From: Bryobacterales bacterium
GTDB taxonomy: Bacteria; Acidobacteriota; Terriglobia; Bryobacterales; UBA6623
Direction: 5' to 3'
DNA length: 64,000 nt
Assembly: GCA_965219585.1 (NCBI GenBank)
Contig: CBDCOA010000003.1
Location: 593,375-657,374, forward strand
The translations under genes and the position numbers were made by a program. The notes below the pieces were generated by a model that was not told the origin of the DNA, searched no databases, and worked only from the letters and a program-made list of their open reading frames with translations. Numbering within the stretch: the first letter of the stretch is position 1; each line of letters opens with the position of its first letter. Of this stretch, positions 8,960 through 64,000 are shown piece after piece.

Positions 8960-9400
8960 TCAGCGCCTGTGCACCAAGACCTTGTTCGTTCCATGCTGCA
9001 CGATCTTGTCGTCTTGATTCAACACCTCATACTCGACAGTGACCACGCCACGGTCCGGCTTGGAGCTAGACGGGCGCTTGTCTGTAACACGAAGTCGCGC
9101 ATGGATCGTGTCACCGATATAGATCGGTCCAGAAAACTCCCACGACCAGTGCAGAGACGCAATGGCCTCGATCTGGAACGAGGACCGGTGCTTCAGGCCA
9201 TCGGCCATCGCCAGCCCCAGCAATCCGTGCGCCACTCGCCGCCCGAACTGTGTCTTGCGAGCGTACTCCTCGTTGGTGTGCAGCTCGAAGAAGTCCATCG
9301 ACACTGCCGCGAAGTTCATCACGTGCCAATCGGTCACTGTGATCGCGGGCGTCTCGTGCTCCTCGCCGATCTCGATCTCGTCGAACCTGCGCTTTTCCAT
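8960..9400 (-). CDS. MaoC-like (R)-hydratase / hot-dog fold dehydratase
   Basis: 146 aa, with a MaoC-dehydratase-like pattern (FAAVSMDFFELHTNEEYA..T.FG.RVAHG). Confidence 0.7.
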   Translation of the reverse strand: MEKRRFDEIEIGEEHETPAITVTDWHVMNFAAVSMDFFELHTNEEYARKTQFGRRVAHGLLGLAMADGLKHRSSFQIEAIASLHWSWEFSGPIYIGDTIHARLRVTDKRPSSSKPDRGVVTVEYEVLNQDDKIVQHGTNKVLVHRR

Positions 9401-9690
9401 GGCCGCTACGTGCAGTAGACCACACCTAACGGCACGCTACGAAGTCGCACCAGTCCTTGGCCGGCCTAGAGAACGCCGTCCGCAAAGCCAGACGGGCGCA
9501 CGGTTCCTTACTCGTGTTAAAGATAAACTTTCTTAACTAGTCGCAAAATGGCAGATGAAGCCTTTGTCCAGCGCGGAACTCGCCAAAGGACCTTGCATTC
9601 CGCCGAGTCCGGTTGCGTCGTGCGGCCCGCACAAGCAGCAAACCACGCAGCCGCGTCATGTGCGAGCCATCGTGGTTGCCCTAAGCTTAG

Positions 9691-11271
9691 ATGCGTTCCA
9701 TGACACTGCAACGAATCCTGCCAGCGGCCCTCGCCCGGCTCGGCGCGGCCAGCTGCGTTCTCGCGGCGATCACGGGCTGCCAAGGCCCGGAGCCCTCCGT
9801 ATCCCGGCCCAACATCATCTTTCTGCTTACCGACGATCAGAGGGCGGATGCCCTCAGCATCGCTGGCAATCCGATCCTTCAGACCCCTCACATTGACAAG
9901 CTGGCCAATGACGGCGTGCGCTTCACCGAGGCCCACGTGGTCGCCCCGGTTTGCATGCCCAGCCGCACGAGCTTCATGAACGGCCAGTACGAGCGCGTAC
10001 ATCAGATCGGCTTCTCATCCCCGAACGTGATTTCCGACGCGCAGTGGGACCAGACCTACTCCGCGCTGCTGCGCCGGCAGGGCTATCACGTCGGCTTCGT
10101 CGGCAAGATCGGATTGCAACAGTACTCATTCCGTGGCAAGCCTCTGGAAAAGTTCGACTTCTGGCGCGGCCACGATGACTGGGCCCGATTCTGGCCGAAG
10201 GAGTTCGAGCACCTCGCGATCTATCACGATGCCGAGGCGGAAATTGTCACGCCGATCATGAGCGACAGCATCGAGCGCTTCCTCGACGACGCACCGGCTG
10301 ACAAGCCCTTCATACTTTCGGTCAGTTTCTCCGCCCCACACGGCTCGATCTCCGGATCGATGCTCTACCCCGAAGAAGACGGAGCGACCCGCATGACCAA
10401 GCCGGCGAACTCCCATCCAAAGCTGGCGAACCATCCGATATATGACTCGCTGTATCGCGACGCCGACCTGCAGCCTCCCAGCACGTTCGGCGACGACACC
10501 GCGGAGCATATCCCGTTGGATGTGCATCCAAGAGAGGGCCGCATGAATACCTACTCGTACTCCTATCTCGGCCCGGAGGTGTTGCGCGAGCATCGCGTGC
10601 GCTACTACCAACTGATCCATGGCGTCGACCGAGCCGTCGGCCAGCTGCGGGAGAGCTTGGAACAGCGGGGCATCGCCGACAACACGGTGATCGTATTCAG
10701 CAGCGACCACGGCCTGCTGATGGGCGAATACGCGATGGGCGGCAAGTCCCTGCTCTACGATCTGACCACCCGCGTACCGCTGATCGTCTACGATCCCCGC
10801 GCTCCAGAGGAGTCGCGCGGTACCACGGTCGACGAACTGGTGCTCAGCATCGACGTTCCCGCAACCATAGCCGCTCTCGGCGGTCTGGACGTGCCGGCCA
10901 GCATGCAGGGGCGGGACCTGGGCCCGTTGCTAGCTGACCCGCAGGCCGAGTGGCGGGACGAGATCTTTATCGAGAGCCTGTTCCTGATGCGCACCGGGCC
11001 GTACATGGAAGCGGTGCGCACGAAGGATTGGAAGTACGTGCGCTACTTCCGCAGCGACAAGGCGCAATACGGCGAGCAAGACGTCGACTTTCGGGGGCGC
11101 CAGCCCGATTTCGAGCAGTTCTTTGACCTCAACAATGATCCGGGGGAGGAAGCCAATCTCGTTACAGAGCCCGCCCTGCAAGGGCGCATTGAAGGATTTC
11201 GCGAGCGTTGCAAGCAGCACTCTGCCGCCCTAGTGCTGGCACGCCAAGATACCGAGACGTACCCGCGCTAG
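9691..11271 (+). CDS. Sulfatase (lipoprotein-type signal)
   Basis: Has a lipobox (LAAITGC), then NIIFLLTDDQRAD and the CMPSRTSFMNGQ signature (C-x-P-x-R). Confidence 0.85.
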   Translation: MRSMTLQRILPAALARLGAASCVLAAITGCQGPEPSVSRPNIIFLLTDDQRADALSIAGNPILQTPHIDKLANDGVRFTEAHVVAPVCMPSRTSFMNGQYERVHQIGFSSPNVISDAQWDQTYSALLRRQGYHVGFVGKIGLQQYSFRGKPLEKFDFWRGHDDWARFWPKEFEHLAIYHDAEAEIVTPIMSDSIERFLDDAPADKPFILSVSFSAPHGSISGSMLYPEEDGATRMTKPANSHPKLANHPIYDSLYRDADLQPPSTFGDDTAEHIPLDVHPREGRMNTYSYSYLGPEVLREHRVRYYQLIHGVDRAVGQLRESLEQRGIADNTVIVFSSDHGLLMGEYAMGGKSLLYDLTTRVPLIVYDPRAPEESRGTTVDELVLSIDVPATIAALGGLDVPASMQGRDLGPLLADPQAEWRDEIFIESLFLMRTGPYMEAVRTKDWKYVRYFRSDKAQYGEQDVDFRGRQPDFEQFFDLNNDPGEEANLVTEPALQGRIEGFRERCKQHSAALVLARQDTETYPR

Positions 11272-52158: not shown

Positions 52159-52400
52159 TTGAGGCGGCCTCATAGAGGTCGAATCCCCAGTTCCACACCT
52201 TGCGGACTCGCAGCCTGCCGCTCCGAAGGGCGGTTGCGAGCGAATTGGCAGAGGCCGAGCATCGTCGCCGGGATTCGAGACAGGCTTCGACCACGTGAGC
52301 CCGCGCTCAGTTTGCCTCCCGCTAGAACGGTAAAATATCTAAACCTTTCGGGGCCTGTGCCGGATCCGAAGAACGGCGAGGCCTCTTCTCCGCCGGCCGA

Positions 52401-53534
52401 ATGCTGTTGCGGAGGCCGTGCGAAAACGCTGGAACCAAGAACGTGAGCAGTATCGACAAGTTGACGCGAGCCATTTCTCGCGGACTGGGTTTCCTTGAGG
52501 AGCATCAGCACTCGGACGGACATTGGCAGGACTTTGGCCTCCCCTTCGAGAGCGACATGTGGGTGACTGCATATGTGGGCACCATGGTGTCGGGGGTTTC
52601 GCTTGGCAACACTCGTGAGATGGCCGAGCGCGGCTACGCTTGGCTCCAGCAGGTTGCCAATCGCGGTCGATGGGCTTATGCGGACGAGGCAGCCCTCGAC
52701 GCCGACTCCACCATTTGGGCCTCCCGCCTCGGAGAGCAACTGGGACTCGGGATCTCTTCGGAGACCTTGGAATTCCTGCACAAACACGTCTGCGAGGACG
52801 GTCTAGTCGCGACCTACATGCACGAGGACTTTCTCGAGAGATACGGCGACAGCTTTCAGATGCAGAACCCTGGCTGGTACCGTGGCCACGCTTGCGTCAG
52901 CAGCGCAGCCAGTTCGCTCGGCGGGTTGCCTTGGCGGGACAGAATAGTTCGCGCGCTAAGCCTCGCCCAACAGTCAACGGGTTCTTGGCAGGGATATTGG
53001 TGGCTCGACCCCGAATACGCTACGGCGCTCAGCATTGAGGGCCTCCTTGGCTCCGTAGAATATGCACATAGCGTGGAGGCCGGGGCGCAATGGTTGTCCC
53101 GCCGAGCGCGAGACGGTGCGGCGAAGACACCGCACTTTCCCGAAGGATCGCCCTTTGCGACCGGTCTCGCCCTTCGAGGGCTCTGCATGGCTGGCGAGCG
53201 CGGCCCCGTTCAAGAGCGCATAGGCGCTTGGCTAGCAAACGCACAGAAGCGCGACGGTAGCTGGAGTTCTTCCGCTACGCTGCTGGTGCCCAACCCTCAC
53301 ATGATGCGCCCCAACCCGCTCTTGTGGCTTCCCGGGGACCGCAAGCGAACCCGTTGGGAAACAGTCTTTTGGGACCAACACCGGCTCCATACAACCTCTA
53401 CCGTGATCAACGCCCTTTGGCAGCTGCTGGTAGCCATGGAACTCGATGGGAACGCTAGCCCGAGCGCCGAGGATTCAGACCTCGGCGAATCCGACAGCGC
53501 CAAGGCGGAGCCTAGCCCGGGGGCCGCGAGTTAA
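52401..53534 (+). CDS. Prenyltransferase / squalene-cyclase-repeat (alpha/alpha-toroid) protein, no signal peptide
   Basis: Has three QW-type repeats (LEEHQHSDGHWQD, LAQQSTGSWQGYWW, LANAQKRDGSWSS) and an acidic, disordered C-terminus. An alternative GTG start lies at 52443. Confidence 0.6.
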   Translation: MLLRRPCENAGTKNVSSIDKLTRAISRGLGFLEEHQHSDGHWQDFGLPFESDMWVTAYVGTMVSGVSLGNTREMAERGYAWLQQVANRGRWAYADEAALDADSTIWASRLGEQLGLGISSETLEFLHKHVCEDGLVATYMHEDFLERYGDSFQMQNPGWYRGHACVSSAASSLGGLPWRDRIVRALSLAQQSTGSWQGYWWLDPEYATALSIEGLLGSVEYAHSVEAGAQWLSRRARDGAAKTPHFPEGSPFATGLALRGLCMAGERGPVQERIGAWLANAQKRDGSWSSSATLLVPNPHMMRPNPLLWLPGDRKRTRWETVFWDQHRLHTTSTVINALWQLLVAMELDGNASPSAEDSDLGESDSAKAEPSPGAAS

Positions 53535-56473
53535 GCCGACTGGCGACGGACAAGGTCTTGAAACAGACCCTCTGTTGCCGCCAGTTCCGCGAACGACCCT
53601 TGCTGGACCACTCTTCCTGCGCTCAGCACATAGATCCGATCCGCCTGGCGCAAGGTGGAGAGCCGGTGGGCAATGACAAGTCGCGTGGCAGTAAGGCTTG
53701 CGAGATTGTCCATGACCTCGGCCTGGCTCTCGTTGTCTAGCCAGTTCGTGGCTTCGTCCAAGAACAAGATGCGCGGATTCCGAATCAGGGCGTGGGCGAC
53801 GACGATCCGCTGGCTTTCGCCTCCCGACATGACGCTGGCTCTGGCACCAACGTTTGTCATCATGCCCATCGGCATCGCTGAGATCACCCGATCCACGGCC
53901 GCGACCTGAGCTGCATTCCATACCTCCGCCGAAGTCGCATCCTCGTAGTCGCCGACAATGTTGTCCCACACGTCTTCCGGATGCAGCTGCACATCTTGCG
54001 GGACCACGCCAACATTGCGACGCAATTGCTTGACATTGAGATGTTTGAGGTCGCGGCCATCGTAGTACACCGCTCCAGACGATGGCTGGTGCAGGCCCAG
54101 CGCGAGCTTGAATAGCGTGCTCTTGCCCGAACCTGACTCGCCCGTTATGGCGACGAACTCGCCGGGATTTGCTCGTATGGACACGTCGTCCAGCATCAGT
54201 GGGCCCTCAGGATCGAATCGAAAGCTGACATGATCAAACGCGACCTCGCCTCCCAAGTGGTCGACGGATTCTCCGTCAACGTCTACTTCTGGAGGCTCGG
54301 CAAGCAGTGGCTGCAACTGTGTGAAGGCCGGCACGCTAGCAGCGACTGCACTGAAAGAGCAGCTAAGGTTGGTCACGGCCGACTGGAACAGCACCAACAG
54401 GGTGTAGACGACCAGAAAGTCCCCGACCGATAGCGTGTCCCGGTCTGCCGACGAAGCCGCCAGGATCAGCCCGGCACCGGCCAGGAAGGGCAATGCTTCC
54501 CCGAACGCCCGCAGATGCTGTTCGAAAGCACCAACTCTCAGCTCGGCGTGCTTCTGCTCGCGGTAGTCTCGAGCCCAAGCTGCGAACGCCGAACCCTCCG
54601 CTCCGGAGACTCGCAATCGAGTAATGCCGTTGATGAGTTGGAACAGCCGGCCCGCAAGGCGCTGGACAGCGTGGATCAGGCGACCGTGGGGCGCGATCTG
54701 ACACATGCCTAGTGCCAGGGTCACTGCCAGGGACACAAGACCGAATGCGAGGGTCACGCTACCTAGCACGGAGTCGTAGAAGAAGGTGACCAACAGCGCG
54801 GGGGACAGGAATGCGACTGAAAGAACAGAGTTGCCCACAAAGCCGTGCGCCGCGTCGCGGAGGTTCTGGAACGCCATGCCCCGCATTGCGAGGTCACCTG
54901 CGGCATACCGGTGCAGGATGGCTGGCGAGAGCCGGAGCATTCGGTCCCAGAAGGAGGCTTCCATTCGCGATGCCGCCCGTCCTCCCAAGCGCATCAATGA
55001 AGTGCCTCTGAGAACGTGCAAGAGCGCCCCGATGACCGCGAGCGTCGCCAGTACAGCCGCGATCGGGTACAACAGATCGGTATCGCCGGTCGGAATCATC
55101 TCGTCCGCGACAATGCCCAGCACTATCGCCGGCAACAGCATGACCAGGCCAGCCGCCAGCCCGCTTGCCACGAATCGCACGAGATCGGCGGAGACACCGT
55201 TGCGCGCTATGCGCAAAAGGTCTCGCGGAGCGGCGCTGGCGGAGGGCAGGGGCGTGTAGAAGATCCACGCTTCAGGACGCAACGATTCGGAAGCACTAGC
55301 CGTCATCCTTGTCTTCCGCCGCCGGATCGGATCGACCTGTCGGTAGGCTCCGAAGGATCTCGGCAGGAGAGCAACGGGCTGGCCGTCGACAGCCCGGAAC
55401 GCCAGCATTGGACCGCTGTCACCGGTCCACCATTGATCTGCGGTGTCAAGCCGGACTCGTCGCGCACGCACCCCCGACGCGGCGAGCACCTCGGCGAGGC
55501 CTCTGGTCGCATCCGATGTGGTCGGCCGCGCAGGCCACTTGAATTCAATGCCCTGATGCCGGCCAATGATCCGCAACGCCTCTTGCAGCGGTGATTCGCC
55601 CGCGCCTTCAGCGCCATCGACCGGAAGATCGTAGAGATTGAACAGGCCGCGCCGGGCGCTATCTTCGTCCACTCGGCGACTGGTGGCCCGTGCCCAGTCC
55701 AGGTTTGCTTGGTCGACGACTGCCAGCCTGCGATTGAGCCGTTCCAAAGAAAAGCCCATGGCGTGGAAGCTTGCCAAAGCAGGGAGCAATAGGCCCTTGT
55801 CGGCGAGCGCTTCGGAAGACTGGGCCGAGACCGCCACCTCCTTGTCTGTTACGGTCAGCCAGAGACTTGGCGTGAGCGCTACGGCGGTGTGGCCGGCATC
55901 CTGTTCCGGCAAGTCCAGCCCGACGTCCAGCAGCCCCATGAACAATGCCGAGCCTGGAGGTAGTTCCGACACCCATGCCACGCCCCGGCGCGCCGAGAGC
56001 GTGCCCGGTTGCGCCGTTAGAGCCTTCCCCGGTTCTGCCAGCAGATCCGGGCGCGGCCGGTCGCCGACGTCCCGCGACAGAACGGCCGAAACGTCCGCGA
56101 GCCAAGCGTCGACTTGTTCTGCAAATTCTTCGCTTCGGACAGCGGCCAAGCTGGCTACGGGAATGCGCCGGAGCACCGTGCCGGGCAGTCCCTTTGCAAG
56201 CAGCCCGAGAGTCGTGTCTTCGACCTGAGGCTCCACTCCGAGCAGCAGGCGTCCGGTGTCGGTGCGCATCAGGTGCTGCGGTGCAGACTGCTCCACTCCG
56301 TCCTGCCACTCGGTCAGAAACAGGTCGACCGCGCCTTCCTCGATGAACCACGAGCATTGCGGGTCGGCCATGTCGAGCGGCAGATTGCCGGCGCACGGGA
56401 CCCGTTCGCCGAACTCTAGGGCGAGCTCGGCGAGGGAGCGGAATTCCCGGTCTGCCATCGGACTAGCCAGCAC
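53531..56473 (-). CDS. NHLP-type bacteriocin system ABC transporter 2 (cNMP-binding-like N-domain, permease, ATPase; no peptidase)
   Basis: 980 aa. The C-terminal ABC ATPase has Walker A GESGSGKST, signature MSGGESQR and Walker B ILFLDEAT. The long N-terminal region starts with a cyclic-nucleotide-binding-like fold. The start overlaps the stop of the upstream ABC gene. Confidence 0.75.
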   Translation of the reverse strand: MLASPMADREFRSLAELALEFGERVPCAGNLPLDMADPQCSWFIEEGAVDLFLTEWQDGVEQSAPQHLMRTDTGRLLLGVEPQVEDTTLGLLAKGLPGTVLRRIPVASLAAVRSEEFAEQVDAWLADVSAVLSRDVGDRPRPDLLAEPGKALTAQPGTLSARRGVAWVSELPPGSALFMGLLDVGLDLPEQDAGHTAVALTPSLWLTVTDKEVAVSAQSSEALADKGLLLPALASFHAMGFSLERLNRRLAVVDQANLDWARATSRRVDEDSARRGLFNLYDLPVDGAEGAGESPLQEALRIIGRHQGIEFKWPARPTTSDATRGLAEVLAASGVRARRVRLDTADQWWTGDSGPMLAFRAVDGQPVALLPRSFGAYRQVDPIRRRKTRMTASASESLRPEAWIFYTPLPSASAAPRDLLRIARNGVSADLVRFVASGLAAGLVMLLPAIVLGIVADEMIPTGDTDLLYPIAAVLATLAVIGALLHVLRGTSLMRLGGRAASRMEASFWDRMLRLSPAILHRYAAGDLAMRGMAFQNLRDAAHGFVGNSVLSVAFLSPALLVTFFYDSVLGSVTLAFGLVSLAVTLALGMCQIAPHGRLIHAVQRLAGRLFQLINGITRLRVSGAEGSAFAAWARDYREQKHAELRVGAFEQHLRAFGEALPFLAGAGLILAASSADRDTLSVGDFLVVYTLLVLFQSAVTNLSCSFSAVAASVPAFTQLQPLLAEPPEVDVDGESVDHLGGEVAFDHVSFRFDPEGPLMLDDVSIRANPGEFVAITGESGSGKSTLFKLALGLHQPSSGAVYYDGRDLKHLNVKQLRRNVGVVPQDVQLHPEDVWDNIVGDYEDATSAEVWNAAQVAAVDRVISAMPMGMMTNVGARASVMSGGESQRIVVAHALIRNPRILFLDEATNWLDNESQAEVMDNLASLTATRLVIAHRLSTLRQADRIYVLSAGRVVQQGSFAELAATEGLFQDLVRRQSA

Positions 56474-57700
56474 TGACGAGCCGGAAGTACGTGCCGTCCC
56501 GGTCCTGCATCAAGTCGTCATGGGTGCCGCGCTGGACTTCCGCGCCTTGCTCCAGCACGATGATCTCGTCGCAGTCTCGGACCGTGCTCAACCGGTGCGC
56601 CACGATCAGGCAGCTGCAGCCGCGACGACGCAATGCGTCGTCCACACGCTCTTCCGTTGTGGCGTCAAGGGCGCTCGTCGCCTCGTCGAGTACCAGGACG
56701 GTCGGGTTGCCAGCCAGCGCGCGCGCGATCTCCAGCCGCTGCTTCTGCCCTCCGCTGAAATTCCCCCCGCCTTCGTCGACCTGCGTCGCATAGCCGAGCG
56801 GCCTGCTGAGAATCTCGTCATGAATGCCGGCATCCCTTGCCGCAGCGACCAGGACCTCGTCGGGCACGGTCGGGTTCCAAAGCGTAATGTTCTCGCGCAG
56901 GCTGGCTGAGAAGAGGACGAAATGCTGGTCCACCATCGACACCGAGCGCGACAGCACGTCTTCCGGTATCTCGGACCGACCGCGGCTGTCGAAGAGTATT
57001 TCGCCGGACCAAGGCTGATAGACACCAGCAACCAACCGCGAAAGGGTCGATTTTCCTGAGCCGCTCGGACCGACAACGGCAACCCTCTGCCCCGGCTCGA
57101 TTCTCAAACTGAAATCCTTGATCAGCGGCGGGCGGCTCCGGTTGTAGCCGAAGGTAACGTTCCGCAATTCGACGCGCCCAGAGAGACGCAGCCGCCCGTC
57201 GAGCGTAGCGATTGCCTCTGAGGCTTGGCTTCGCCCGGCCAAGCCCGGATCCTCCTCGGCTTCAGTGATGTCTTCCAGTCTCTGCATGTCGCTCTCGAGA
57301 GCCTGGCGCTCTCCGAAGAACTCCACGAACCGCCCGACGGGCGCAAGGAACATGGACGCCACGATGTAAAACGCCACCAGCGTGCCCAAAGTCATCGCTC
57401 CAGCCACGACCTGGGCAGCCCCGAAGGCCAAGACCGTCACGTTGCCGAGAACCGTGAACAAGTCCGGCAGGGCCGCGTTGCAATGGCCCAGCTCGGCGAA
57501 TCGTTGGTGAGCGGCCAGCGCGCGAGCCTGATGGCCGCCCCAGCGCGAAAAGAAGCGGTCGTCCGACGCTGTCACGCGCAGGATGTCCGTCCGCTCCAGC
57601 ATCAACATGCCGATGCCGACCAGCAGTCCACGCTCGCGCCTCAGGGCATGGCTGCTGTCCGTTCGAAGTCGCGTGACCCACCAAGCCGCCACCGCGTTTA
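56463..57700 (-). pseudogene. C-terminal fragment of the C39-peptidase ABC exporter (NHLP system ABC1), separated from its 5' part by IS110
   Basis: Reads ..NAVAAWWVTRLRTDSS...FFSRWGG... then the ATPase (Walker A GPSGSGKST, signature FSGGQKQR, Walker B VLVLDEATS). It joins in frame to 59486-60442 when 57701-59490 is removed. Confidence 0.85.
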
Positions 57701-59485
57701 CTGAGAAACGTCATCGTGGGGGAGGCGCACCGCTCCCCCACCCCGCGGTCGTGAAGTTCCGCGGTCCGCCGTTGTATGCCCACCAGCCGGCGGATCAGCA
57801 GCCCGCCACGGTAGCCCCGATCTGTGTCCGGAGCGGTGCCGCGCCACCGTCGGCGGTGGGCCTAGGATGGGATCGAACTCAGGCGGCCGCCGGCTGCGGG
57901 CCGCCGGAACGGGCGCGCTCGATATAGCCGTGCTCTTCGAGCTTGCGCAGCCAGCGGGCCGCGTTGCGGTCCACCACCAGCTTGTCGTAGTCGATGCCCG
58001 GATCGATGTAGGGACGCTGCTCGCGCAACATCGCCACGATCGTGCGCAGCAGCTTGTGCGCCGTCGCCAAGATGGCGCGCTTGTACGGCATATGCGCCTT
58101 GAGCGCGTTGTGGTGGCCGTGGAACTGCGAGCCCTTGCTGCGCACGGCGCCGTGAGCGCACTCGGCCAGCGTGGCCCGCAGCGTGGCATTGCCGCGCCGC
58201 AAGCGCCCCGAGCGCCGCTTGCCGGCACTCTCGTTGTTGCCCGGGGCCAGCCCGGCCCAAGCGGCCACGTTGGCCGTCTTGTCGAAGGCTGACAGGTCGG
58301 GCCCCAACTCGACCAAGATCGCGCAGGCGCTGCCGCGGTCAATGCCCGGCACCGTCTCCAGCAAACGCACCTGTTCCTCCAGCTCGGACAAGCCCTCTGC
58401 CAGGCGGGCATCCAACTCCGCGATGCTCGCGTTGGCCGCCTCGTGCGTGCGCAGCAGGTCGCCCAGCTTCCACACCGCGTGCGCATCCAATTTCGCTTGC
58501 AGCACTTGCGCGAGCAACTCGCGCTTGTGGCGCACGTGTCCGCTGAGCGTGGCCAGGATCTCGTCCGGCGAGTTGCCCGCGGTCAGCCCCGCCAGGATCT
58601 TGCGCCCATTGCGCCCGAAGATGTCGCTCAGCGCCCCGCCCAGCCGCAGCCCGTCGTGGTCCAGCGTCTTGTGGATGCGGTTGCGCGCCCGGCTGCGCTC
58701 GCCCACCAGCTTGCGGCGGTAGCGGCTCAGCTGGCGCAACTGGCGGAACTTGCGCGGCGGCACGTAGCTGGGCCGACACAGCCCGAACTGGCAAATGCGC
58801 GCCAGCCAGACGCTGTCGGCCACGTCGCTCTTGCGGCCTTTCACCTGCCGCACAAATTGCGCGTGGAATAGCTGCGGCGCGATGCCGGCGGCCTCCAGCG
58901 CCTCCCACGGGGCCTGCCAGAAAATGCCGGTGGCCTCCATGGCCGCGGCCGTGACGCGATGGCTGTGCAGCCACTGGGTCAGCTCTGCCAGCCCGTCGGG
59001 CAAGGCGCTGAACTGGCGCGTGGCGCACTGCACGCCGCCGCCGGGCTGGCACAGCCGCACCGAGGCGGTGATCTGCATCTTGTGCACATCGAGTCCGGCC
59101 GCGCGTGGATGCACGACGTGCATCTCGTCGGGCTGCAGGCTCTCGCCTGCTGGGGTGGTCATGCTGTATCCTCCTGTACAGCGGAGGCGGGTGATGCTGG
59201 CCCGGGGAAATCCCTCGGCTCGCGAGCGAGCCGGGGCTCGATTTACTGTGCGTCCTAGGCCGCAGCCTGGTACGGTACGGGGCTCGAAGGGGCGCAGCGG
59301 CGTCAGTTTAGATAACGAGGTCGGGGGCCACGGCCCTTGCGGGGACCGCAGCCCTTCCACCACTTAGAGATCCGATCTTGCACCCACCTCCGCTACCTGC
59401 AAACCTAGCAACTGAGGTGGCCCCTACGCCGCCGGCAACCCTCGCCCGTTTCATGCATACGGGGTGGCTGCACGCGGCCATGGGT
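57701..59485 (-). mobile_element. IS110-family insertion sequence (~1785 bp) inserted in the C39-ABC exporter gene
   Basis: The 5-mer GTTTA is present at both junctions (57696-57700 and 59486-59490). Deleting one copy plus the intervening 1785 bp restores a continuous 729-codon ORF (...LALAALN|AVAAWWV...). The element carries an IS110-type transposase and has no obvious terminal inverted repeats, as is usual for this family. Confidence 0.85.
57879..59162 (-). CDS. IS110-family (DEDD) transposase/recombinase
   Basis: The ATG at 59160-59162 is preceded by AGGAGGA. The N-terminal part has AAGLDVHK...MEATG (RuvC-like DEDD domain). The C-terminal part has the Transposase_20-like region (VPGIDRGSACAILVELG..., AGLAPG...SAGKRR). 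Confidence 0.9.
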   Translation of the reverse strand: MTTPAGESLQPDEMHVVHPRAAGLDVHKMQITASVRLCQPGGGVQCATRQFSALPDGLAELTQWLHSHRVTAAAMEATGIFWQAPWEALEAAGIAPQLFHAQFVRQVKGRKSDVADSVWLARICQFGLCRPSYVPPRKFRQLRQLSRYRRKLVGERSRARNRIHKTLDHDGLRLGGALSDIFGRNGRKILAGLTAGNSPDEILATLSGHVRHKRELLAQVLQAKLDAHAVWKLGDLLRTHEAANASIAELDARLAEGLSELEEQVRLLETVPGIDRGSACAILVELGPDLSAFDKTANVAAWAGLAPGNNESAGKRRSGRLRRGNATLRATLAECAHGAVRSKGSQFHGHHNALKAHMPYKRAILATAHKLLRTIVAMLREQRPYIDPGIDYDKLVVDRNAARWLRKLEEHGYIERARSGGPQPAAA

Positions 59486-60442
59486 GTTTAGCGCGGCGAG
59501 AGCCAGCACGACCAGCGCGAGCGCCGGATCGTACGCTAGCATGGCCGCCAAGAACACTGCGCTCGTCGCAATCTCGATCAACAAGCCGAGAAAATGCTCC
59601 GACAGGCCTGTGGCGACCTTGTCAACGGCAAGGACGCGATCTGTAAGGTCGCCGACGAGGCGGTGGCTGAAATACTCGACGGGCAACCGGAGCAGCCGTG
59701 AGACACACCGATTTCCAGCGATCACTGAGGCCCGCACGGACAGCCGCAGCAGCCACCGCTGCTTCAACCAAGCCAGGCCATAGACGAGTATCGCCGTGCC
59801 ACCCATGATCGCGGCGATGACGCCACCCCAAGGCTCGCGGCCCCCAACAACGCGATCCACGAAGATACCGAGCATCACAGGTGTAACGAGCGACAGCACG
59901 GCCAGCAGCAATCCGCACACAAAGACGTATGGCAACGCGCCCGAATGACCACCAAACCAAGCCCGGAACTGCCGGAGGGTGCTGGCCCGGGCACCTCCCC
60001 GCATGAAGTCCGGTCCCGGAGCGAACTCCAGCGCGATCCCGGTGAAGCTCTTCCGGAATTCCTCCTCAGGGATCTTGCGGCGTCCTGTGGCTGGGTCGTT
60101 GAGATAGAAGTGCCCCCGATCGAAGCCTTCCAAGATGACGAAGTGATTGAACTCCCAAAACAGGACCAGAGGCAGCGACATTTTTCGCAGAAGCCTCGCG
60201 GGCGCGGTCCGGCCGGTGCACTTCAGCCCGTAATGCCGTGCGGCGCGGACGAGGCCGGCGGCGGAGGAGCCGTCCCGGCCCACTTCACACCGGCCCCGCA
60301 ACTCAGCGAGCGGCACCCAGCGCCCGAAATGCGCAAGGACGCTGCCAAGGCACGCAGCACCGCATTCGGCCGCATGCATCTGCAGGAGCAGCGGTGTCTC
60401 GATGCGCCGCCGCTCACGGGGGATTTGGCGCTTCTCGCTCAA
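59486..60442 (-). pseudogene. N-terminal fragment of the C39-peptidase ABC exporter (NHLP system ABC1)
   Basis: Has a C39 peptidase domain with the catalytic Cys context LLQMHAAECGAACLGSVLAHFG and the later NHFVILEG (His). The first TM helices follow. The native sequence ends at ..LALAALN, then reads into the IS. Confidence 0.85.
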
Positions 60443-60454
60443 TGTCGCTTGTCT

Positions 60455-61369
60455 CTATGGGCGGACCGAATTCGTTCCGAGCAGCCGAGAGCTCAGCAAG
60501 GCTATCGGCCGGTACTGCCCCAGCACGACGCGGATTCGGCAAGCCGCACCGTCGAGGTCGAGCGCGTCCGCCCTCGGATCGAGAGCAACGTCAACTCGGT
60601 GTACTTCACCCACAACCGGAGCGCGCTCAGCCGCCAGCCACTTCGGGAGGGGACCTGGGGTCACCAGAGCCACGCCTGCATTCAGCTGACGGACTCCGCC
60701 GTTGGGCACCGCGACCTCGATGGATGCCTCCATCCCGGATCGGATGCTTCCCGCAAGCCTCGAACCAACTTGCGTCACTGCTTGGACGGTATTGCCATCG
60801 GCCGGAGTCCGAATCTGCGCGACCGCAGTGCCAGGCGGCATGTAGTCTCCCGCAGTCAGCCCCAAGGCCATCACTTCGCCGTCGACATGGCTCGCAAGTG
60901 CCTCTCTTGCCGAACGGCGCGCTTCCAGCTGGAGCATCGCCGAGCGGGCAGCGGCTAGCCGCGAGCGCAAAGCCGCACCACCCCCGGCCGAGGCCCGAGT
61001 CTCCTCTTGCAACAGATCCACGCGGTCACGCAGAGCCTGTATCTCGCGTTCCAGTTCTGGCACGCTTTGTCGCGCAACCGGATCTCCGGCCGCGACTTGA
61101 TCGCCGACATCGACCAGATATTCCACGAGATGGCCCGGCTCGCTCGAGACTACTTCGTGGCGGTCCCCGGGCTTGATCAGTACGCCGTCGATTGTGACTG
61201 TTCGGACAACGCTACCGAACAGCCCCCATGATGCGAGCGCAAGCACCAACGCGCCAATGCCAGCCAGCAGGAGGCGTTCGTGAGGCGCCGCGATGCGCAG
61301 GAGACGGTCGAGTTGCTGGCGCTCGCTCCTGCTGGCGGCGGCTTCCTCCAGAAACGGACTGTTGAACAC
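60455..61369 (-). CDS. HlyD-family secretion adaptor of the NHLP bacteriocin system
   Basis: Has an N-terminal TM anchor (LLLAGIGALVLALASWGLF), a lipoyl-like motif (G.LVEYLVDVGDQVAAGDPVA), a short coiled coil and a beta-barrel region. It sits between the precursor gene and the ABC exporters. Confidence 0.75.
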   Translation of the reverse strand: MFNSPFLEEAAASRSERQQLDRLLRIAAPHERLLLAGIGALVLALASWGLFGSVVRTVTIDGVLIKPGDRHEVVSSEPGHLVEYLVDVGDQVAAGDPVARQSVPELEREIQALRDRVDLLQEETRASAGGGAALRSRLAAARSAMLQLEARRSAREALASHVDGEVMALGLTAGDYMPPGTAVAQIRTPADGNTVQAVTQVGSRLAGSIRSGMEASIEVAVPNGGVRQLNAGVALVTPGPLPKWLAAERAPVVGEVHRVDVALDPRADALDLDGAACRIRVVLGQYRPIALLSSRLLGTNSVRP

Positions 61370-61429
61370 CGGCCTCGCGCCCCCCAGCTACGGCAGGGAT
61401 CCCGCCGAACAATCGCAGCCCAGTCGCTG

Positions 61430-61468
61430 GCTGCTCGGCTCTGGCGGAAACCGCCAGAGCCGAGCAGC
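61430..61468 (-). promoter_or_regulatory. Perfect 18-bp stem / 3-nt loop hairpin between the precursor gene and hlyD
   Basis: GCTGCTCGGCTCTGGCGG-AAA-CCGCCAGAGCCGAGCAGC. No U-tract follows on the minus strand. Confidence 0.7.
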
Positions 61469-61608
61469 GGCCGTACCTGCGAGCAAGCCTCGAACGGGCG
61501 TCGGGAGAACGTTCCCCCCGAGACCGACGGGGCCGGGGCTCGCGATCTGGACATGCTCGAGCACAAGTAGAACCGCTGTCCCCCTTGTGCCCACGATGAG
61601 TTCGAACG

Positions 61609-61860
61609 CTAGATGCAGCAGCAGCAGCGCCCGGCCGAGATAGCCTCAAGCTGCTCCTCGGCGAGGTCGGTGGCAGGCAGAGCCACGTGAACCGTCTGCA
61701 TGTCGTTCTCATGCACCTTGATGGCAACCTCGTCCGGAACTTCTACCCCTAGTTCCTCTTCGACTGCCGCCTTGGGATCCGACAACAACCTGCTGCGGAA
61801 GTCGCCATCAACGCTGGCCCTCTCTGTGAGTCGGGCGCCTAGTTCACTTACAGAATCCAT
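61609..61860 (-). CDS. NHLP (nitrile-hydratase-like leader peptide) family RiPP precursor, predicted core RCCCCI
   Basis: 83 aa: MDSVSELGARLTERASVDGDFRSRLLSDPKAAVEEELGVEVPDEVAIKVHENDMQTVHVALPATDLAEEQLEAISAG|RCCCCI. AGGAGGAA lies upstream of the ATG. The leader matches the NHLP pattern (..F...LL.DPKAA...ELGV..P..V.IKV.E......H..LP......E.L) and ends in a double-glycine-type site. Confidence 0.85.
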   Translation of the reverse strand: MDSVSELGARLTERASVDGDFRSRLLSDPKAAVEEELGVEVPDEVAIKVHENDMQTVHVALPATDLAEEQLEAISAGRCCCCI

Positions 61861-61894
61861 TTTCGTTCCTCCTGTTCCAATACGGACGCGCAGC

Positions 61895-61965
61895 TAACGG
61901 ACATACCGTTAACGTAGACACACATACGTTACACAATACTCACTCTGCTTGTCAAGAAGTGTCAA
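61895..61965 (-). promoter_or_regulatory. AT-rich putative promoter/operator region upstream of the precursor gene
   Basis: On the minus strand, two TTGACA hexamers lie 10 bp apart (61950-61955 and 61960-61965). A TAACGT -10-like hexamer sits 18 nt after the proximal one. A TAACGG-N5-CCGTTA palindrome (61895-61911) lies between it and the RBS. Confidence 0.4.
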
Positions 61966-62427
61966 GGAATCATGGAATGCCCCTCAGCGGTCGCTTCGAG
62001 GACTTCTGGGAATGCCGGTCCGAGTCAAACTGATGCCCACCTCGAATTCCAGGCGTGCACCCTGGTGTGCCCCAGGATTGCGTGACCACATGACGGTAGC
62101 GCGGGGGAGTTTCGGAACGCGGGTATCCCAGCGCGCGTCCGCTTGCTCCAGAAGGAAGCGCCCCGAACAGTCAGACGCTCCCGGATCTGGACTTCATGCA
62201 GCCCAGGCGTCTGTGGCGCGGTCTAGGTCGTCGGCCTCGAGCGCGCACTAGGGCCCATCGGGGTCTGTTCACTCAGCACCGCCTGCCGGACGCCGCCGCC
62301 GGGCGAAGTGCGCTTCGCGCAAGTGGCTCCCTCGAGCAAGGACGGTCGCAGCCAAGAGTCCCCTGCAACTGGGACTCCGACTAGCCAGCCCAGCGCCCGG
62401 GCATGGCCCGACCCGATGGCGCTTGGC

Positions 62428-63843
62428 CTAAAGTGCGGATTCGTCGGACGATCGCACATCGGACTGCAGTGGCCGCCCGATGACGCACTCGCCAACGGTG
62501 CCTTCCACGAGCGGGTCTAGTCCGGTGATGCGGGCGAACAGCGCAGAATCGCCGGCCCCAAGTCCGCATGCGGAGAGTCCGAGTTCCGTCGCCGCCAGAT
62601 AAAGGGTTTGATACAAGACACCCGTGTTGCGGAGGATGTTTCCGTATCCGATTGACCTGTACTTCCACATGACCCGCCCAAACCTCGCCGCGATAGCAAG
62701 GATGATCTGGGGATTGGCACCGTCGCCCGACGACCGCTTCGCGTCCGCAACGATCCGGGACACGTCGGCATCACTGGCAGGTATGCGCACGAGCGAATGA
62801 TGCGAGGCATCGTAGTGGTATACACCGCGCGCCAGATCGGCACAGCGGGCAACCACTGGATAGATCTCAAGCTCGTGGCACGCGCCGGCACTCGGATACG
62901 GGCGTTTGGTGATCTCAAACTGGGCTGACTGACCGGAAGAGCTGGCGACCGGAGCAACCCGGGTAGACCGCGTCCGGGCTGAGCGATCGAGCAGCGCTCC
63001 CAGTTCCTGCACTGAGACCGGACGGCTGTCGTCGAAGCGGCGCACCGAGCGACGCCTCTCCAGCACAGAGGCAAACGATTCCCTGCCCGAATCGACGGGA
63101 GCGCGGGGCAGCCTGATGCGTTCGCCCGGCCAACTCGGACGCTCTGCTGGCGGAGGATTGATCTGCCCGACGAACGGGAAGTGTGCACCCAGCAGGTCGC
63201 GATGCCAGCCCCGCCGCTGATGCGTGTGAAACAGCAGGTCGTGAAATTCCCACAGCTTCAGAGCGTCTTGGCGAGAATCACTCTCTACCTGCGCTTGTCG
63301 CAGGAACCCAGCAGCGGCAAGAGCACGCCGGACGAGAGGCGCTTCCAGCGCGCTCAAGTCGGCCACCACGAGCCTGGCCCCGCACAACGGCGATTCCACC
63401 ACCCAGGCGTTGCCGGACGGGCGCACACAGGCAAACGGTTGGAGGCGATCATCGATCGGCGGCGTCCGCGCAGCAAGCGAAGGGACATACGAAGCCCGCT
63501 GGGGCGCTATGACCGCGTACTCAGTGCCCTTCTCCACAAGCGGGTACTCGACGAACCCCGTGCGACACAGCACCCGCAGCTGTTCAAAGAACGCCATGGC
63601 ATTCCATTCACCGCCGGAGGCGACGACCGAGTCGCGGAGTTCGGCGAGCGCCGCGCCGCTGGCTATCCCATCGATGGCCGCGTCATAGTGCGAGACGTAG
63701 CCCGACAGGCGAACGATGCTTCCGTCCTCGGCCTCTATGAGTAGCGAGCGGCCGTCCTCGGACCTTCCCACCGCGCATCCAGCTCGAATGCGAAGCCGAA
63801 TCGCCGGCTCGTTCAGCAGATCCTCCAGGCCCACGGCGAACAT
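62428..63843 (-). CDS. SagB/ThcOx-family FMN-dependent dehydrogenase (nitroreductase fold) with ~220-aa N-terminal extension
   Basis: The C-terminal half matches the SagB-type pattern (LERRRSVRRF, RPYPSAGACHELEIYPVV, GVYHYD, KYRSIGYGNILRNTGVLYQTLYLAATELGLSACGLG). The N-terminal ~220 aa are unassigned. Confidence 0.8.
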   Translation of the reverse strand: MFAVGLEDLLNEPAIRLRIRAGCAVGRSEDGRSLLIEAEDGSIVRLSGYVSHYDAAIDGIASGAALAELRDSVVASGGEWNAMAFFEQLRVLCRTGFVEYPLVEKGTEYAVIAPQRASYVPSLAARTPPIDDRLQPFACVRPSGNAWVVESPLCGARLVVADLSALEAPLVRRALAAAGFLRQAQVESDSRQDALKLWEFHDLLFHTHQRRGWHRDLLGAHFPFVGQINPPPAERPSWPGERIRLPRAPVDSGRESFASVLERRRSVRRFDDSRPVSVQELGALLDRSARTRSTRVAPVASSSGQSAQFEITKRPYPSAGACHELEIYPVVARCADLARGVYHYDASHHSLVRIPASDADVSRIVADAKRSSGDGANPQIILAIAARFGRVMWKYRSIGYGNILRNTGVLYQTLYLAATELGLSACGLGAGDSALFARITGLDPLVEGTVGECVIGRPLQSDVRSSDESAL

Positions 63844-64000
63844 CTCCCGCTCAGTCTTGGAAGGTCGTGCCCCTTGAACTCACAAACGAGCCTCGGCCCC
63901 CGGCTGCGTATAGCTGGGCACCCCCGGTCAGGTACCGGCTCATAGCTCCTAGCTGGGGTTGGAACCAGTCGAGGACACCTCAGAGCAGGGGCCACGATGA

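What the first reader, a model, noticed from the sequence alone, without database searches (positions are those of the whole stretch)
61609..61860. NHLP-leader RiPP precursor whose entire predicted core is the hexapeptide RCCCCI
Seen: a minus-strand 83-aa ORF with a strong SD (AGGAGGAA). The first ~77 residues match the nitrile-hydratase-like leader peptide pattern and end ...EEQLEAISAG. Only RCCCCI follows before the stop.

Established: NHLP leaders (Haft, Basu and Mitchell 2010) are removed at a double-glycine-type site (GG/GA/AG) by a C39 peptidase-ABC exporter. The matching HlyD, C39-ABC and second ABC genes lie directly downstream.

Inference: the mature product would be about 6 residues with four contiguous cysteines. 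That is much shorter and more Cys-dense than the NHLP/Nif11 cores I know of. With the adjacent SagB/ThcOx-type dehydrogenase, a contiguous tetra-thiazol(in)e is conceivable. A thiol-rich metal ligand or a lipidated C-terminus are also possible. I know of no characterised RiPP with this core.
Basis: partly seen in the sequence, partly recalled or inferred. Interest (0 to 1): 0.85.

Follow-up and report, generated by a model that had tools for sequence, protein, structure and literature searches.

The report
Four-cysteine variant of sponge srp peptide
This small gene is real and encodes a precursor peptide with a six-residue, four-cysteine tail, but it belongs to an already described family of sponge-microbiome peptides (srp) in which adjacent cysteines are converted to sulfur-containing rings, so it is a new variant and not a new kind of system.

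Summary
The 83-aa ORF at 61609..61860(-) is there as described. It has an AGGAGG ribosome-binding site 7 nt upstream, passes the NHLP leader model (65.6 bits, cutoff 50.9) and ends AG|RCCCCI. The tail is not an accident or a truncation. 426 loci in species-representative genomes encode relatives, and nearly all of the 80 loci retrieved end in LCCCW, RCCC, RCCCC[X] or similar.

The LCCCW form is SrpE of the published "srp" sponge-microbiome clusters. There a YcaO enzyme converts the three cysteines to thiazolines.

The window holds an Acidobacteriota (Bryobacterales-like) subtype with four Cys, an N-terminal Arg, a ThcOx-type azoline oxidase and no brominase. The required YcaO is not in the window. 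Collinear relatives place it about 450 nt past the window end.

The most likely core product is Arg-(thiazole)4-Ile. An IS110 element splits the C39-peptidase exporter gene, so this copy may not be able to export its product.

The conserved partners include an MstE-like terpene cyclase (in the window) and, off-window, an ABBA-prenyltransferase-fold protein and an AlkB-like oxygenase. These suggest a prenylated mature product, but this is unproven.

The parts
61609..61860 (-). Precursor gene (83 aa plus stop). Leader residues 1-77 are at 61860..61630. Core RCCCCI is at 61629..61612. The stop codon is at 61611..61609.
   Evidence: TIGR03793 scores 65.6 bits against a cutoff of 50.9. The family profile's best PDB match is the MprE7 NHLP structure 8tb1. 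The LxxxxL motif spans L66-L71, which is positions -12..-7 from the core.
61866..61873 (-). Shine-Dalgarno sequence AGGAGGAA. The AGGAGG part ends 7 nt before the ATG.
   Evidence: Read directly from the sequence.
62428..63843 (-). ThcOx/SagB-type FMN-dependent azoline oxidase, 471 aa.
   Evidence: TIGR03605 scores 158 bits; Pfam ThcOx and Nitroreductase domains are present. PDB 5lq4 (CyaGox) and 8pz5 match at E 5.6e-55. The Lys-Tyr motif WKY lies at residues 393-395.
60455..61369 (-). HlyD-type periplasmic adaptor of the NHLP export system, 304 aa.
   Evidence: TIGR03794 scores 97.7 bits, below its cutoff. Pfam HlyD_D23 and HlyD_3 match. The protein is 82-86% identical to the same-length gene in L001 and L009-L011.
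59486..60442 (-). 5' part of the C39-peptidase/ABC exporter gene: the peptidase domain plus the first part of the membrane domain. It is cut off by the IS insertion.
   Evidence: TIGR03796 profile positions 2-307 and Peptidase_C39 at 110.6 bits. Collinear with L009 12367..9899.
57699..59485 (-). IS110-family insertion element of 1,787 bp. Its transposase ORF is at 57879..59363.
   Evidence: NF033542 transpos_IS110 scores 243 bits. The flanks abut at L009 12365/12367, so this is a clean insertion relative to the intact gene.
56463..57698 (-). 3' part of the C39-peptidase/ABC exporter gene: the rest of the membrane domain plus the ATPase.
   Evidence: TIGR03796 profile positions 311-709 at 522 bits. 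89% identical to residues 317-729 of the intact L001 protein.
53531..56473 (-). Second NHLP-system ABC exporter (permease/ATPase with an N-terminal extension), 980 aa.
   Evidence: TIGR03797 scores 685 bits against a cutoff of 709.4.
52401..53534 (+). MstE-like monodomain class II terpene cyclase, 377 aa, convergent with the second ABC exporter. Probably part of the cluster.
   Evidence: PDB 6ij1 'Prenylcyclase' matches at E 7.5e-54 and MstE 6sbb at E 6e-43, both over the full length. The DADST motif aligns with the corresponding motif in both. It is syntenic in L001 and L009-L011. An NHLP-leader::cyclase fusion sits in 37 LCCCW loci.

Best explanation
The ORF is the precursor peptide of an Acidobacteriota (Bryobacterales-like) subtype of the srp family, the sponge-derived RiPP proteusin clusters. 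The proposed pathway is as follows.

1. The NHLP leader folds. Its LAEEQL motif, at positions -12 to -7 from the core, docks the peptide on the modifying enzymes.
2. A fused E1-like/YcaO cyclodehydratase converts the four adjacent Cys to thiazolines. This enzyme is encoded divergently from the oxidase gene and lies about 450 nt beyond the window end.
3. The ThcOx-type FMN oxidase in the window oxidises the thiazolines to thiazoles.
4. The C39-peptidase ABC exporter, with the HlyD adaptor and the second ABC protein, cleaves after Ala-Gly and exports the product.
5. The minimal product is Arg-(thiazole)4-Ile, 619.128 Da.

**Shown here:** the ORF, the leader family membership, conservation of the tail, the identity of the neighbouring genes and the synteny with relatives.

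**Shown in the literature, for the LCCCW relative only:** YcaO-dependent cyclodehydration of the contiguous Cys.

**Inferred:** that the YcaO gene is present in this genome, that all four Cys are modified and oxidised, and that cleavage occurs at AG|R.

**Caveats.** In this genome the exporter/peptidase gene is split by an IS110 element, so maturation and export may be lost. Further tailoring is likely but unproven. The candidates are the ABBA-prenyltransferase-fold protein, the AlkB-like oxygenase and the MstE-like cyclase.
For: **Leader and motif.**
- NHLP leader scores above the family cutoff.
- LxxxxL sits at -12..-7, exactly as published for SrpE and MprE7 (PMC10858898).

**Conservation of the tail.**
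- 31 protein homologues and 426 genome loci were found.
- The 80 best loci almost all end in X-CCC(C)-X tails after (A/G)G.

**Published chemistry of the relative.** SrpE has the core LCCCW, and SrpC makes three thiazolines in it. MprC/MprD convert LCCCW to thiazoles.

**Synteny.**
- L009, L010 and L011 (Bryobacterales/Terriglobia MAGs) are collinear with the window. Window 52000..64000 matches L009 18063..7883 at 83-92% nucleotide identity.
- These loci carry, divergently upstream of SagB, the YcaO, the ~380-aa protein and the AlkB-like fusion.
- The L001 YcaO matches TIGR03882 and TIGR03604 above their cutoffs.

**Oxidase.**
- SagB matches ThcOx with the KY motif present.
- SagB co-occurs only with RCCCC-type cores.
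Against: - No YcaO gene is inside the window. Its presence is inferred from synteny only.
- No chemistry has been done on any RCCCC-type precursor.
- Published SrpC activity on LCCCW was partial and difficult.
- The C39-ABC gene is disrupted here.
- The conserved prenyltransferase-fold protein could use a Cys thiol, in which case not all Cys would become azoles.
- The AF2 model of the precursor is low confidence, pLDDT 59.7.
Confidence: 0.72

Rival explanations
1. The main fate of the tail is lipidation. The conserved ABBA-fold prenyltransferase-like protein prenylates one or more Cys thiols, or the Arg or a terminus. The MstE-like class II cyclase then cyclises the prenyl chain, and the AlkB-like oxygenase oxidises it. 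The mature product would be a peptide-terpenoid hybrid and not a bare tetrathiazole.
For: - The ~380-aa partner is found in nearly all loci that are long enough to show it.
- Its AF2 model has pLDDT 89.9, and all top 50 PDB fold matches are ABBA prenyltransferases.
- It has invariant Arg/Lys/Tyr on or next to the barrel strands, mainly R217, K349, K361 and Y363.
- The window's 377-aa protein is a full-length MstE/prenylcyclase homologue with the DADST motif.
- The cyclase is fused to an NHLP domain in 37 LCCCW loci.
- The AlkB-like domain matches 8f6t at E 1.3e-51.
Against: - The fold matches have modest TM-scores of 0.38-0.55, and there is no sequence-level match.
- Some ABBA homologues in RiPP clusters are inactive; PatF is an example (from memory).
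- No prenyl-diphosphate synthase was seen in the loci.
- The cyclase is missing from the RCCC, LCCCG and WCCCG subtypes.
- Published work shows that all three Cys of LCCCW can be heterocyclised.
- This reading is compatible with the best explanation as added tailoring, and is not a strict alternative to it.
Confidence: 0.3
2. In this genome the locus is a decaying, non-producing copy. The IS110 insertion has inactivated the bifunctional peptidase/exporter, so the leader is not removed and nothing is secreted.
For: - There is a clean 1,787-bp insertion inside the membrane domain of the C39-ABC gene, relative to the intact 729-aa genes in L001 and L009-L011.
- The IS110 transposase ORF is intact, which suggests a recent event.
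Against: - All the other cluster ORFs in the window are full length and 82-93% identical in protein sequence to their relatives.
- The precursor keeps its SD sequence and its tail.
- The insertion could be a variant present in only part of a metagenomic population.
- A stand-alone C39 domain can still cleave in vitro; LahT150 has been used this way.
Confidence: 0.35
3. The Cys stay as free thiols or disulfides, and the hexapeptide acts as a thiol-rich metal ligand or redox peptide without heterocyclisation.
For: Four adjacent Cys would bind soft metals. No YcaO is visible inside the window itself.
Against: - A dedicated azoline oxidase is adjacent.
- YcaO is present in almost every related locus that is long enough to show it.
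- Cyclodehydration has been shown experimentally for the LCCCW relative.
Confidence: 0.05

Closest known systems
SrpE / srp clusters (sponge-derived RiPP proteusins; Nguyen et al., J Am Chem Soc 2021; PMC10858898, PMC10286304)
   Same: - Homologous NHLP leader of the same length. Both genes are 252 bp, and the leaders are about 50-55% identical.
- The same ...EEQLEAISAG boundary and LxxxxL motif.
- An ultrashort core of contiguous Cys.
- The same conserved partners: fused YcaO, the ~380-aa protein, the AlkB-like fusion, C39-ABC and ABC2.
- Cys to thiazoline conversion by the YcaO is published for SrpE.
   Different: - The core is RCCCCI, with four Cys, an N-terminal Arg and no Trp. SrpE has LCCCW.
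- There is no SrpI Trp-6 brominase.
- There is an added ThcOx-type azoline oxidase, found only with RCCCC-type cores.
- The terpene-cyclase homologue stands alone here, whereas in LCCCW loci it is fused to an NHLP domain.
- No chemistry exists for this subtype.
MprE / MprC / MprD proteusin azole system (PMC12455567)
   Same: An NHLP precursor, a YcaO cyclodehydratase that binds the LxxxxL motif, and an FMN oxidase that gives thiazoles (-20 Da per Cys). MprC/MprD have been shown to process an appended LCCCW core.
   Different: Mpr cores are longer, carry two to six azolines and vary between the ten precursors. Mpr is not the same orthologous cluster.
Plantazolicin (a linear azole-containing peptide); comparison from memory
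   Same: An N-terminal Arg followed directly by a run of contiguous azoles and then Ile (core RCTCTTIISSSSTF). The predicted Arg-Thz4-Ile resembles its N-terminal half. Some RCCC-type relatives have an adjacent methyltransferase, which recalls the Arg N-dimethylation of plantazolicin.
   Different: Plantazolicin has a short, unrelated leader and a 14-residue core of mixed thiazoles and methyloxazoles. It uses different export and cleavage machinery and comes from Bacillus.
Muscorides (short linear bis-prenylated polyazole cyanobactins); comparison from memory
   Same: A very short core, contiguous azoles and ABBA prenyltransferases that act on the peptide termini. This is a precedent for the prenylation reading.
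   Different: Muscorides use a cyanobactin leader and PatA/PatG proteases, contain oxazoles and not thiazoles, and have no terpene cyclase.
MstE (merosterolic acid class II terpene cyclase, PDB 6sbb) and 'Prenylcyclase' 6ij1
   Same: The window's 377-aa protein aligns with both over its full length, with the D-x-D-[ST]-T motif conserved.
   Different: MstE acts on a prenylated aromatic acid in a meroterpenoid pathway. No RiPP substrate is known for this enzyme type.

Membership tests
NHLP leader peptide family RiPP precursor (TIGR03793; proteusin-type) | Scores above the curated cutoff of the leader HMM. | tested here: met
   65.6 bits against a cutoff of 50.9, residues 5-77.
NHLP leader peptide family RiPP precursor (TIGR03793; proteusin-type) | Similar to the nitrile hydratase alpha subunit but lacking its CxxCSC metal site. 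| tested here: met
   Pfam NHase_alpha scores 47.1 bits. PDB profile hits are 8tb1 (an NHLP structure) and then nitrile hydratase alpha chains. There is no Cys outside the C-terminal tail.
NHLP leader peptide family RiPP precursor (TIGR03793; proteusin-type) | A double-glycine-type boundary, with the LxxxxL motif at -12..-7. | tested here: met
   The AG at residues 76-77 is invariant in the family. L66 and L71 give the motif LAEEQL. Cleavage itself was not tested.
NHLP leader peptide family RiPP precursor (TIGR03793; proteusin-type) | Three-helix bundle, two strands and a helix over LxxxxL, as in MprE7. | tested here: inconclusive
   The AF2 secondary-structure pattern matches (H3-17, H19-27, H29-37, E48-52, E56-60, H68-75), but pLDDT is only 59.7.
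NHLP bacteriocin export system (TIGR03794/03796/03797) | An HlyD adaptor, a C39-peptidase ABC exporter and a second ABC exporter next to the precursor. | tested here: met
   All three genes lie directly downstream. The C39-ABC gene is split by an IS110 element, so the genes are present but integrity fails.
srp cluster (sponge-derived RiPP proteusin) | A precursor homologous to SrpE, with an ultrashort core of contiguous Cys. | tested here: met
   Leaders are about 50-55% identical to those of LCCCW precursors, and the boundary is the same. The core differs: RCCCCI against LCCCW.
srp cluster (sponge-derived RiPP proteusin) | A cognate YcaO cyclodehydratase (SrpC) in the cluster. | tested here: inconclusive
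   It is not in the window. Collinear L009, L010 and L011 have it 0.25-1.3 kb upstream of SagB. The window end corresponds to L009 position 7883 and the YcaO starts at 7432.
srp cluster (sponge-derived RiPP proteusin) | A C-terminal Trp and the Trp-6 brominase SrpI. | tested here: not met
   The core ends in Ile. No Trp_halogenase homologue is found in the window tail or in L001 and L009-L012.
Linear azol(in)e-containing peptide / TOMM | An FMN-dependent azoline dehydrogenase with the Lys-Tyr motif. | tested here: met
   TIGR03605 scores 158 bits. ThcOx 5lq4 matches at E 5.7e-55. WKY lies at residues 393-395.
Linear azol(in)e-containing peptide / TOMM | Azol(in)e rings actually installed on the core. 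| not testable with these tools
   This needs mass spectrometry of the co-expressed precursor. It has been published only for the LCCCW relative.

The most novel reading that the evidence does not exclude
The srp-type clusters, including this RCCCC subtype, may not stop at a polythiazol(in)e peptide. They may make a peptide-terpenoid hybrid in three further steps:
1. A previously unannotated ABBA-fold prenyltransferase attaches a prenyl chain to the tiny heterocyclised core.
2. An MstE-like class II terpene cyclase cyclises the chain. This cyclase is present in the window and is fused to an NHLP domain in the LCCCW clusters.
3. An AlkB-like di-iron oxygenase oxidises it.

I could find no description in the held literature of a class II terpene cyclase acting on a ribosomal peptide. 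If true, this would explain why the mature srp product has stayed cryptic.
Probability: 0.25. Interest if true: 0.75.

Novelty: new variant of a known kind. Interest (0 to 1): 0.42.

Why it matters
The srp clusters are among the most widespread and most highly transcribed biosynthetic loci in sponge microbiomes (preprint 10.1101/2023.06.09.544420), yet their mature product and their role are still unknown.

This window adds a subtype with four Cys and a dedicated azoline oxidase, which should give a fully aromatic, chemically stable Arg-tetrathiazole-Ile. That product would be easier to detect and synthesise than the labile tris-thiazoline of SrpE.

The comparative analysis also shows two further things:
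- The core type tracks the tailoring enzyme: oxidase, brominase or methyltransferase.
- The conserved module contains a prenyltransferase-fold protein, an AlkB-like oxygenase and often a terpene-cyclase homologue. These give concrete, testable leads to the missing steps.

The precursor itself is not a new class of RiPP.

Tried and rejected
- **Looking up the window's own contig.** The exact-sequence look-up of the precursor found nothing on record, and neither did P0006. The region beyond 64000 could therefore only be inferred from collinear relatives.
- **Original srp paper.** The J Am Chem Soc 2021 paper (PMC8780398) and the MprC paper (PMC9746716) are not held. I could not check whether RCCCC-type variants or the accessory genes were already annotated there.
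- **Literature and supplement searches.** A full-text search for RCCCC/RCCC found no RiPP paper. The supplements of PMC10858898 carry no annotation of the other srp genes.
- **The ~380-aa protein.** Sequence searches against Pfam, NCBIfam and PDB found nothing. Only the fold search was informative.
- **Promoter and terminator scan** around the precursor found nothing, which is uninformative for this phylum.
- **Precursor structure.** The AF2 model was too low in confidence to justify a fold search.
- **Rejected: truncated remnant of a longer precursor.** Dozens of independent lineages share the same length and stop position.
- **Rejected: SagB acting alone on Cys.** Relatives show that a YcaO is always part of the module.
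- **Rejected: PalQ as a relative of the ~380-aa protein.** PalQ, an NHLP Trp prenyltransferase (PMC10853753), has an isoprene-synthase fold and not an ABBA fold.

Full report
**Observation.** It has 83 codons and an ATG start. AGGAGG lies at 61873..61868, 7 nt upstream of the ATG. The product ends ...LAEEQLEAISAG-RCCCCI-stop. NCBIfam's NHLP leader model TIGR03793 scores 65.6 bits (cutoff 50.9) over residues 5-77, and Pfam NHase_alpha scores 47.1 bits. There is no second NHLP precursor in the window.

**Neighbours in the window.** All of the following are on the same strand as the precursor.
- Upstream lies a 471-aa SagB/ThcOx-type dehydrogenase at 62428..63843.
- Downstream lies an HlyD-type adaptor at 60455..61369.
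- Next is a C39-peptidase ABC exporter.
- Last is the second NHLP-system ABC exporter at 53531..56473.

The C39-ABC gene is split. Its two parts match TIGR03796 profile positions 2-307 and 311-709, and an IS110 transposase gene lies between them. Alignment to a relative shows a clean 1,787-bp insertion at 57699..59485.

**Is the poly-Cys tail real?** Yes.
- A protein search gave 31 homologues. Their leaders fall to about 50% identity, yet the tails remain RCCCC[ILAFVW], RCCCSW, RCCCV, RCCC or LCCCW.
- A scan of one genome per species with the precursor alignment found 426 loci that encode a relative.
- Among the best 80 loci, the tails are: LCCCW in 50 distinct loci; RCCC in 14; RCCCSW in 4; and RCCCC[F/A/W], LCCC[L/V], LCCCG[V/L] and WCCCG[N/T] in one or two each.
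- The AG before the tail is invariant.
- Close relatives differ by synonymous TGC/TGT changes at the Cys codons.
- The ORF is therefore neither a chance ORF nor a truncated remnant.

**What it is.** The LCCCW form is a published molecule. SrpE is the NHLP (proteusin) precursor of the "srp" clusters of marine sponge microbiomes.
- Its C-terminal Trp is then brominated by SrpI (PMC10858898; PMC10286304). The original report is J Am Chem Soc 2021, 143:10221, which is not held here.
- A preprint reports that this 252-bp gene is the most highly transcribed element of RiPP clusters across phyla in four sponges (10.1101/2023.06.09.544420).
- The published LxxxxL recognition motif lies at -12..-7 from the core. 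In the window's precursor L66 and L71 (LAEEQL) occupy exactly those positions.
- The profile of the window's family finds the solved NHLP structure 8tb1 (MprE7) as its best PDB match.
- The AF2 secondary-structure pattern agrees with that structure, but the model is low in confidence.

**The missing enzyme.** A SagB-type oxidase cannot make azoles without a cyclodehydratase, and none is in the window. Related loci resolve this.
- The closest genome loci are L009 and L010 (Bryobacterales MAGs) and L011 (a Terriglobia MAG). Each has the same gene order:
  - On one strand: AlkB-like fusion, ~380-aa protein, YcaO.
  - Divergently on the other strand: SagB, precursor, HlyD, C39-ABC, ABC2.
  - At the end, a convergent cyclase homologue.
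- Window 52000..64000 is collinear with L009 18063..7883 at 83-92% nucleotide identity, apart from the IS. The L009 YcaO starts at 7432. The YcaO is therefore expected about 450 nt beyond the window end.
- The YcaO of L001 is a canonical fused TOMM cyclodehydratase. It scores 129.5 bits on TIGR03882 (leader-binding domain) and 270.7 bits on TIGR03604 (SagD family), both above their cutoffs.
- The window's oxidase matches the cyanobactin azoline oxidase ThcOx/CyaGox (5lq4) and 8pz5 at E 5.6e-55. It also matches McbC, and it keeps the Lys-Tyr motif (WKY, residues 393-395).

**Subtype structure.** Across the 88 loci retrieved, the YcaO, the ~380-aa protein, the AlkB-like fusion and the two ABC exporters recur with every core type. 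The other tailoring enzymes track the core.
- The SagB oxidase occurs only with RCCCC[X] or RCCCSW cores (L001-3, L009-L012 and the window).
- The Trp halogenase occurs almost only in loci with W-terminated cores (LCCCW, LTCSW).
- A methyltransferase occurs with RCCC, LCCCG[V/L], WCCCG[N/T] and LCCC[L/V] cores.

The window thus represents a distinct, oxidase-bearing, brominase-less, four-Cys subtype. I found no mention of an RCCCC-type core in the searchable literature, but I could not read the original srp paper or its SI.

**Most likely mechanism.**
1. The precursor is translated and its NHLP leader folds.
2. The LAEEQL motif docks on the YcaO, which makes four thiazolines. This step is inferred by homology to SrpC and MprC.
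3. The ThcOx-type oxidase makes four thiazoles. This step is inferred from family membership and from the oxidase's exclusive co-occurrence with this core type.
4. The C39 domain cleaves after AG, and the ABC/HlyD system exports the product. This step is inferred from the NHLP system models.

The minimal product is Arg-(thiazole)4-Ile, at 619.1276 Da. The unmodified peptide is 699.2325 Da. From memory, this resembles the N-terminal Arg-pentazole-Ile half of plantazolicin.

**Further tailoring.** Three other conserved proteins suggest the product is modified further.
- *The ~380-aa partner.* It has no sequence-level annotation. It gives a confident AF2 model (pLDDT 89.9, pTM 0.89). All of its top 50 PDB fold matches are ABBA prenyltransferases, including EpzP, AmbP1, PriB, IptA, LimF, NphB, CloQ, KgpF and PagF, at TM 0.38-0.55 and E 1e-5 to 1e-3. 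Its invariant Arg, Lys and Tyr residues sit on or next to the barrel strands.
- *The ~800-aa fusion.* Its N-terminal half matches alkane 1-monooxygenase AlkB (8f6t, E 1.3e-51). Its C-terminal part matches a GlnE-like segment.
- *The window's 377-aa ORF at 52401..53534.* It is a full-length homologue of the monodomain class II terpene cyclases 6ij1 (E 7.5e-54) and MstE (E 6e-43), and their D-x-D-[ST]-T motif is conserved. It is syntenic in all close relatives. In 37 LCCCW loci the homologous cyclase domain is fused to an NHLP-leader-like domain, which ties it to the system.

A prenylated, possibly cyclised and oxidised, polythiazole is therefore a live possibility. It is unproven, and the acceptor atom is unknown.

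**State of this copy.** The IS110 insertion cuts the exporter/peptidase gene inside its membrane domain. All other genes look intact. Whether the cluster is dead, or whether the insertion is a minority variant, cannot be told from one assembled window.

**Verdict.**
The leader, the export system and the thiazole idea are right. The claim that nothing like this core is known is wrong.
- This is a new variant of a known kind. It is of moderate interest for the precursor itself. The interest would be higher if the terpenoid-tailoring reading of the conserved module proves correct.

Noticed in passing
window 57699..59485: An IS110-family element of 1,787 bp interrupts the C39-peptidase ABC exporter gene of the cluster. 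Its transposase ORF is at 57879..59363(-) and scores 243 bits on NF033542. The flanks rejoin cleanly on the intact gene of relative L009 (12365/12367).
   Followed up: yes
window 52401..53534 (+): This 377-aa protein looked like a weak squalene-cyclase hit in Pfam. It is in fact a full-length homologue of the monodomain class II terpene cyclases MstE (6sbb) and 'Prenylcyclase' (6ij1), with the DADST motif conserved. It is convergent with the second ABC exporter and syntenic in all close relatives.
   Followed up: partly
L007 16299..17597 (-), and 36 other LCCCW loci (for example L020, L028, L046): In canonical srp (LCCCW) loci the cyclase homologue is fused to an N-terminal NHLP-leader-like domain (TIGR03793 49.7 bits). 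That domain lacks the LxxxxL motif and a double-glycine boundary. An enzyme that carries a leader-like domain is unusual and unexplained.
   Followed up: partly
L001 6459..7515 and 9395..10569; L010 7621..7851 and 10001..10231: Some relatives carry two copies of the precursor gene as inverted repeats of about 1.1 kb and about 90% identity, flanking the SagB oxidase gene. The oxidase segment is in opposite orientation in L001-3 compared with L010, L009, L011 and the window. This looks like inversion by recombination between the repeats.
   Followed up: partly
L009 3970..5112 (-); homologues in most loci L001-L088: A protein of about 380 aa is nearly always next to the YcaO and has no Pfam, NCBIfam or PDB sequence match. 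AF2 (pLDDT 89.9) and Foldseek predict an ABBA prenyltransferase barrel. Some loci (L014, L025, L063, L072) have two copies.
   Followed up: partly
L009 1214..3631 (-); L001 157..2577 (-): A conserved ~800-aa fusion of an AlkB-like membrane di-iron alkane monooxygenase domain (8f6t, E 1.3e-51) with a GlnE-like C-terminal segment. It is co-operonic with the YcaO across core types. Its role in a RiPP pathway is unknown.
   Followed up: no
loci L001-L088 (table): The tailoring enzyme tracks the core type. The SagB oxidase occurs with RCCCC[X]/RCCCSW cores. The Trp halogenase occurs with LCCCW/LTCSW cores. A methyltransferase occurs with RCCC, LCCCG[V/L], WCCCG[N/T] and LCCC[L/V] cores. DUF1329/DUF1302 outer-membrane-type proteins accompany many LCCCW loci.
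   Followed up: partly
window 47798..52158 (+): A cytochrome P450 gene (47798..49060) and two sulfatase genes (49124..50629 and 50611..52158) lie directly beside the cluster. Multiple sulfatases are typical of sponge symbionts (from memory). There is no evidence that they belong to the cluster.
   Followed up: no
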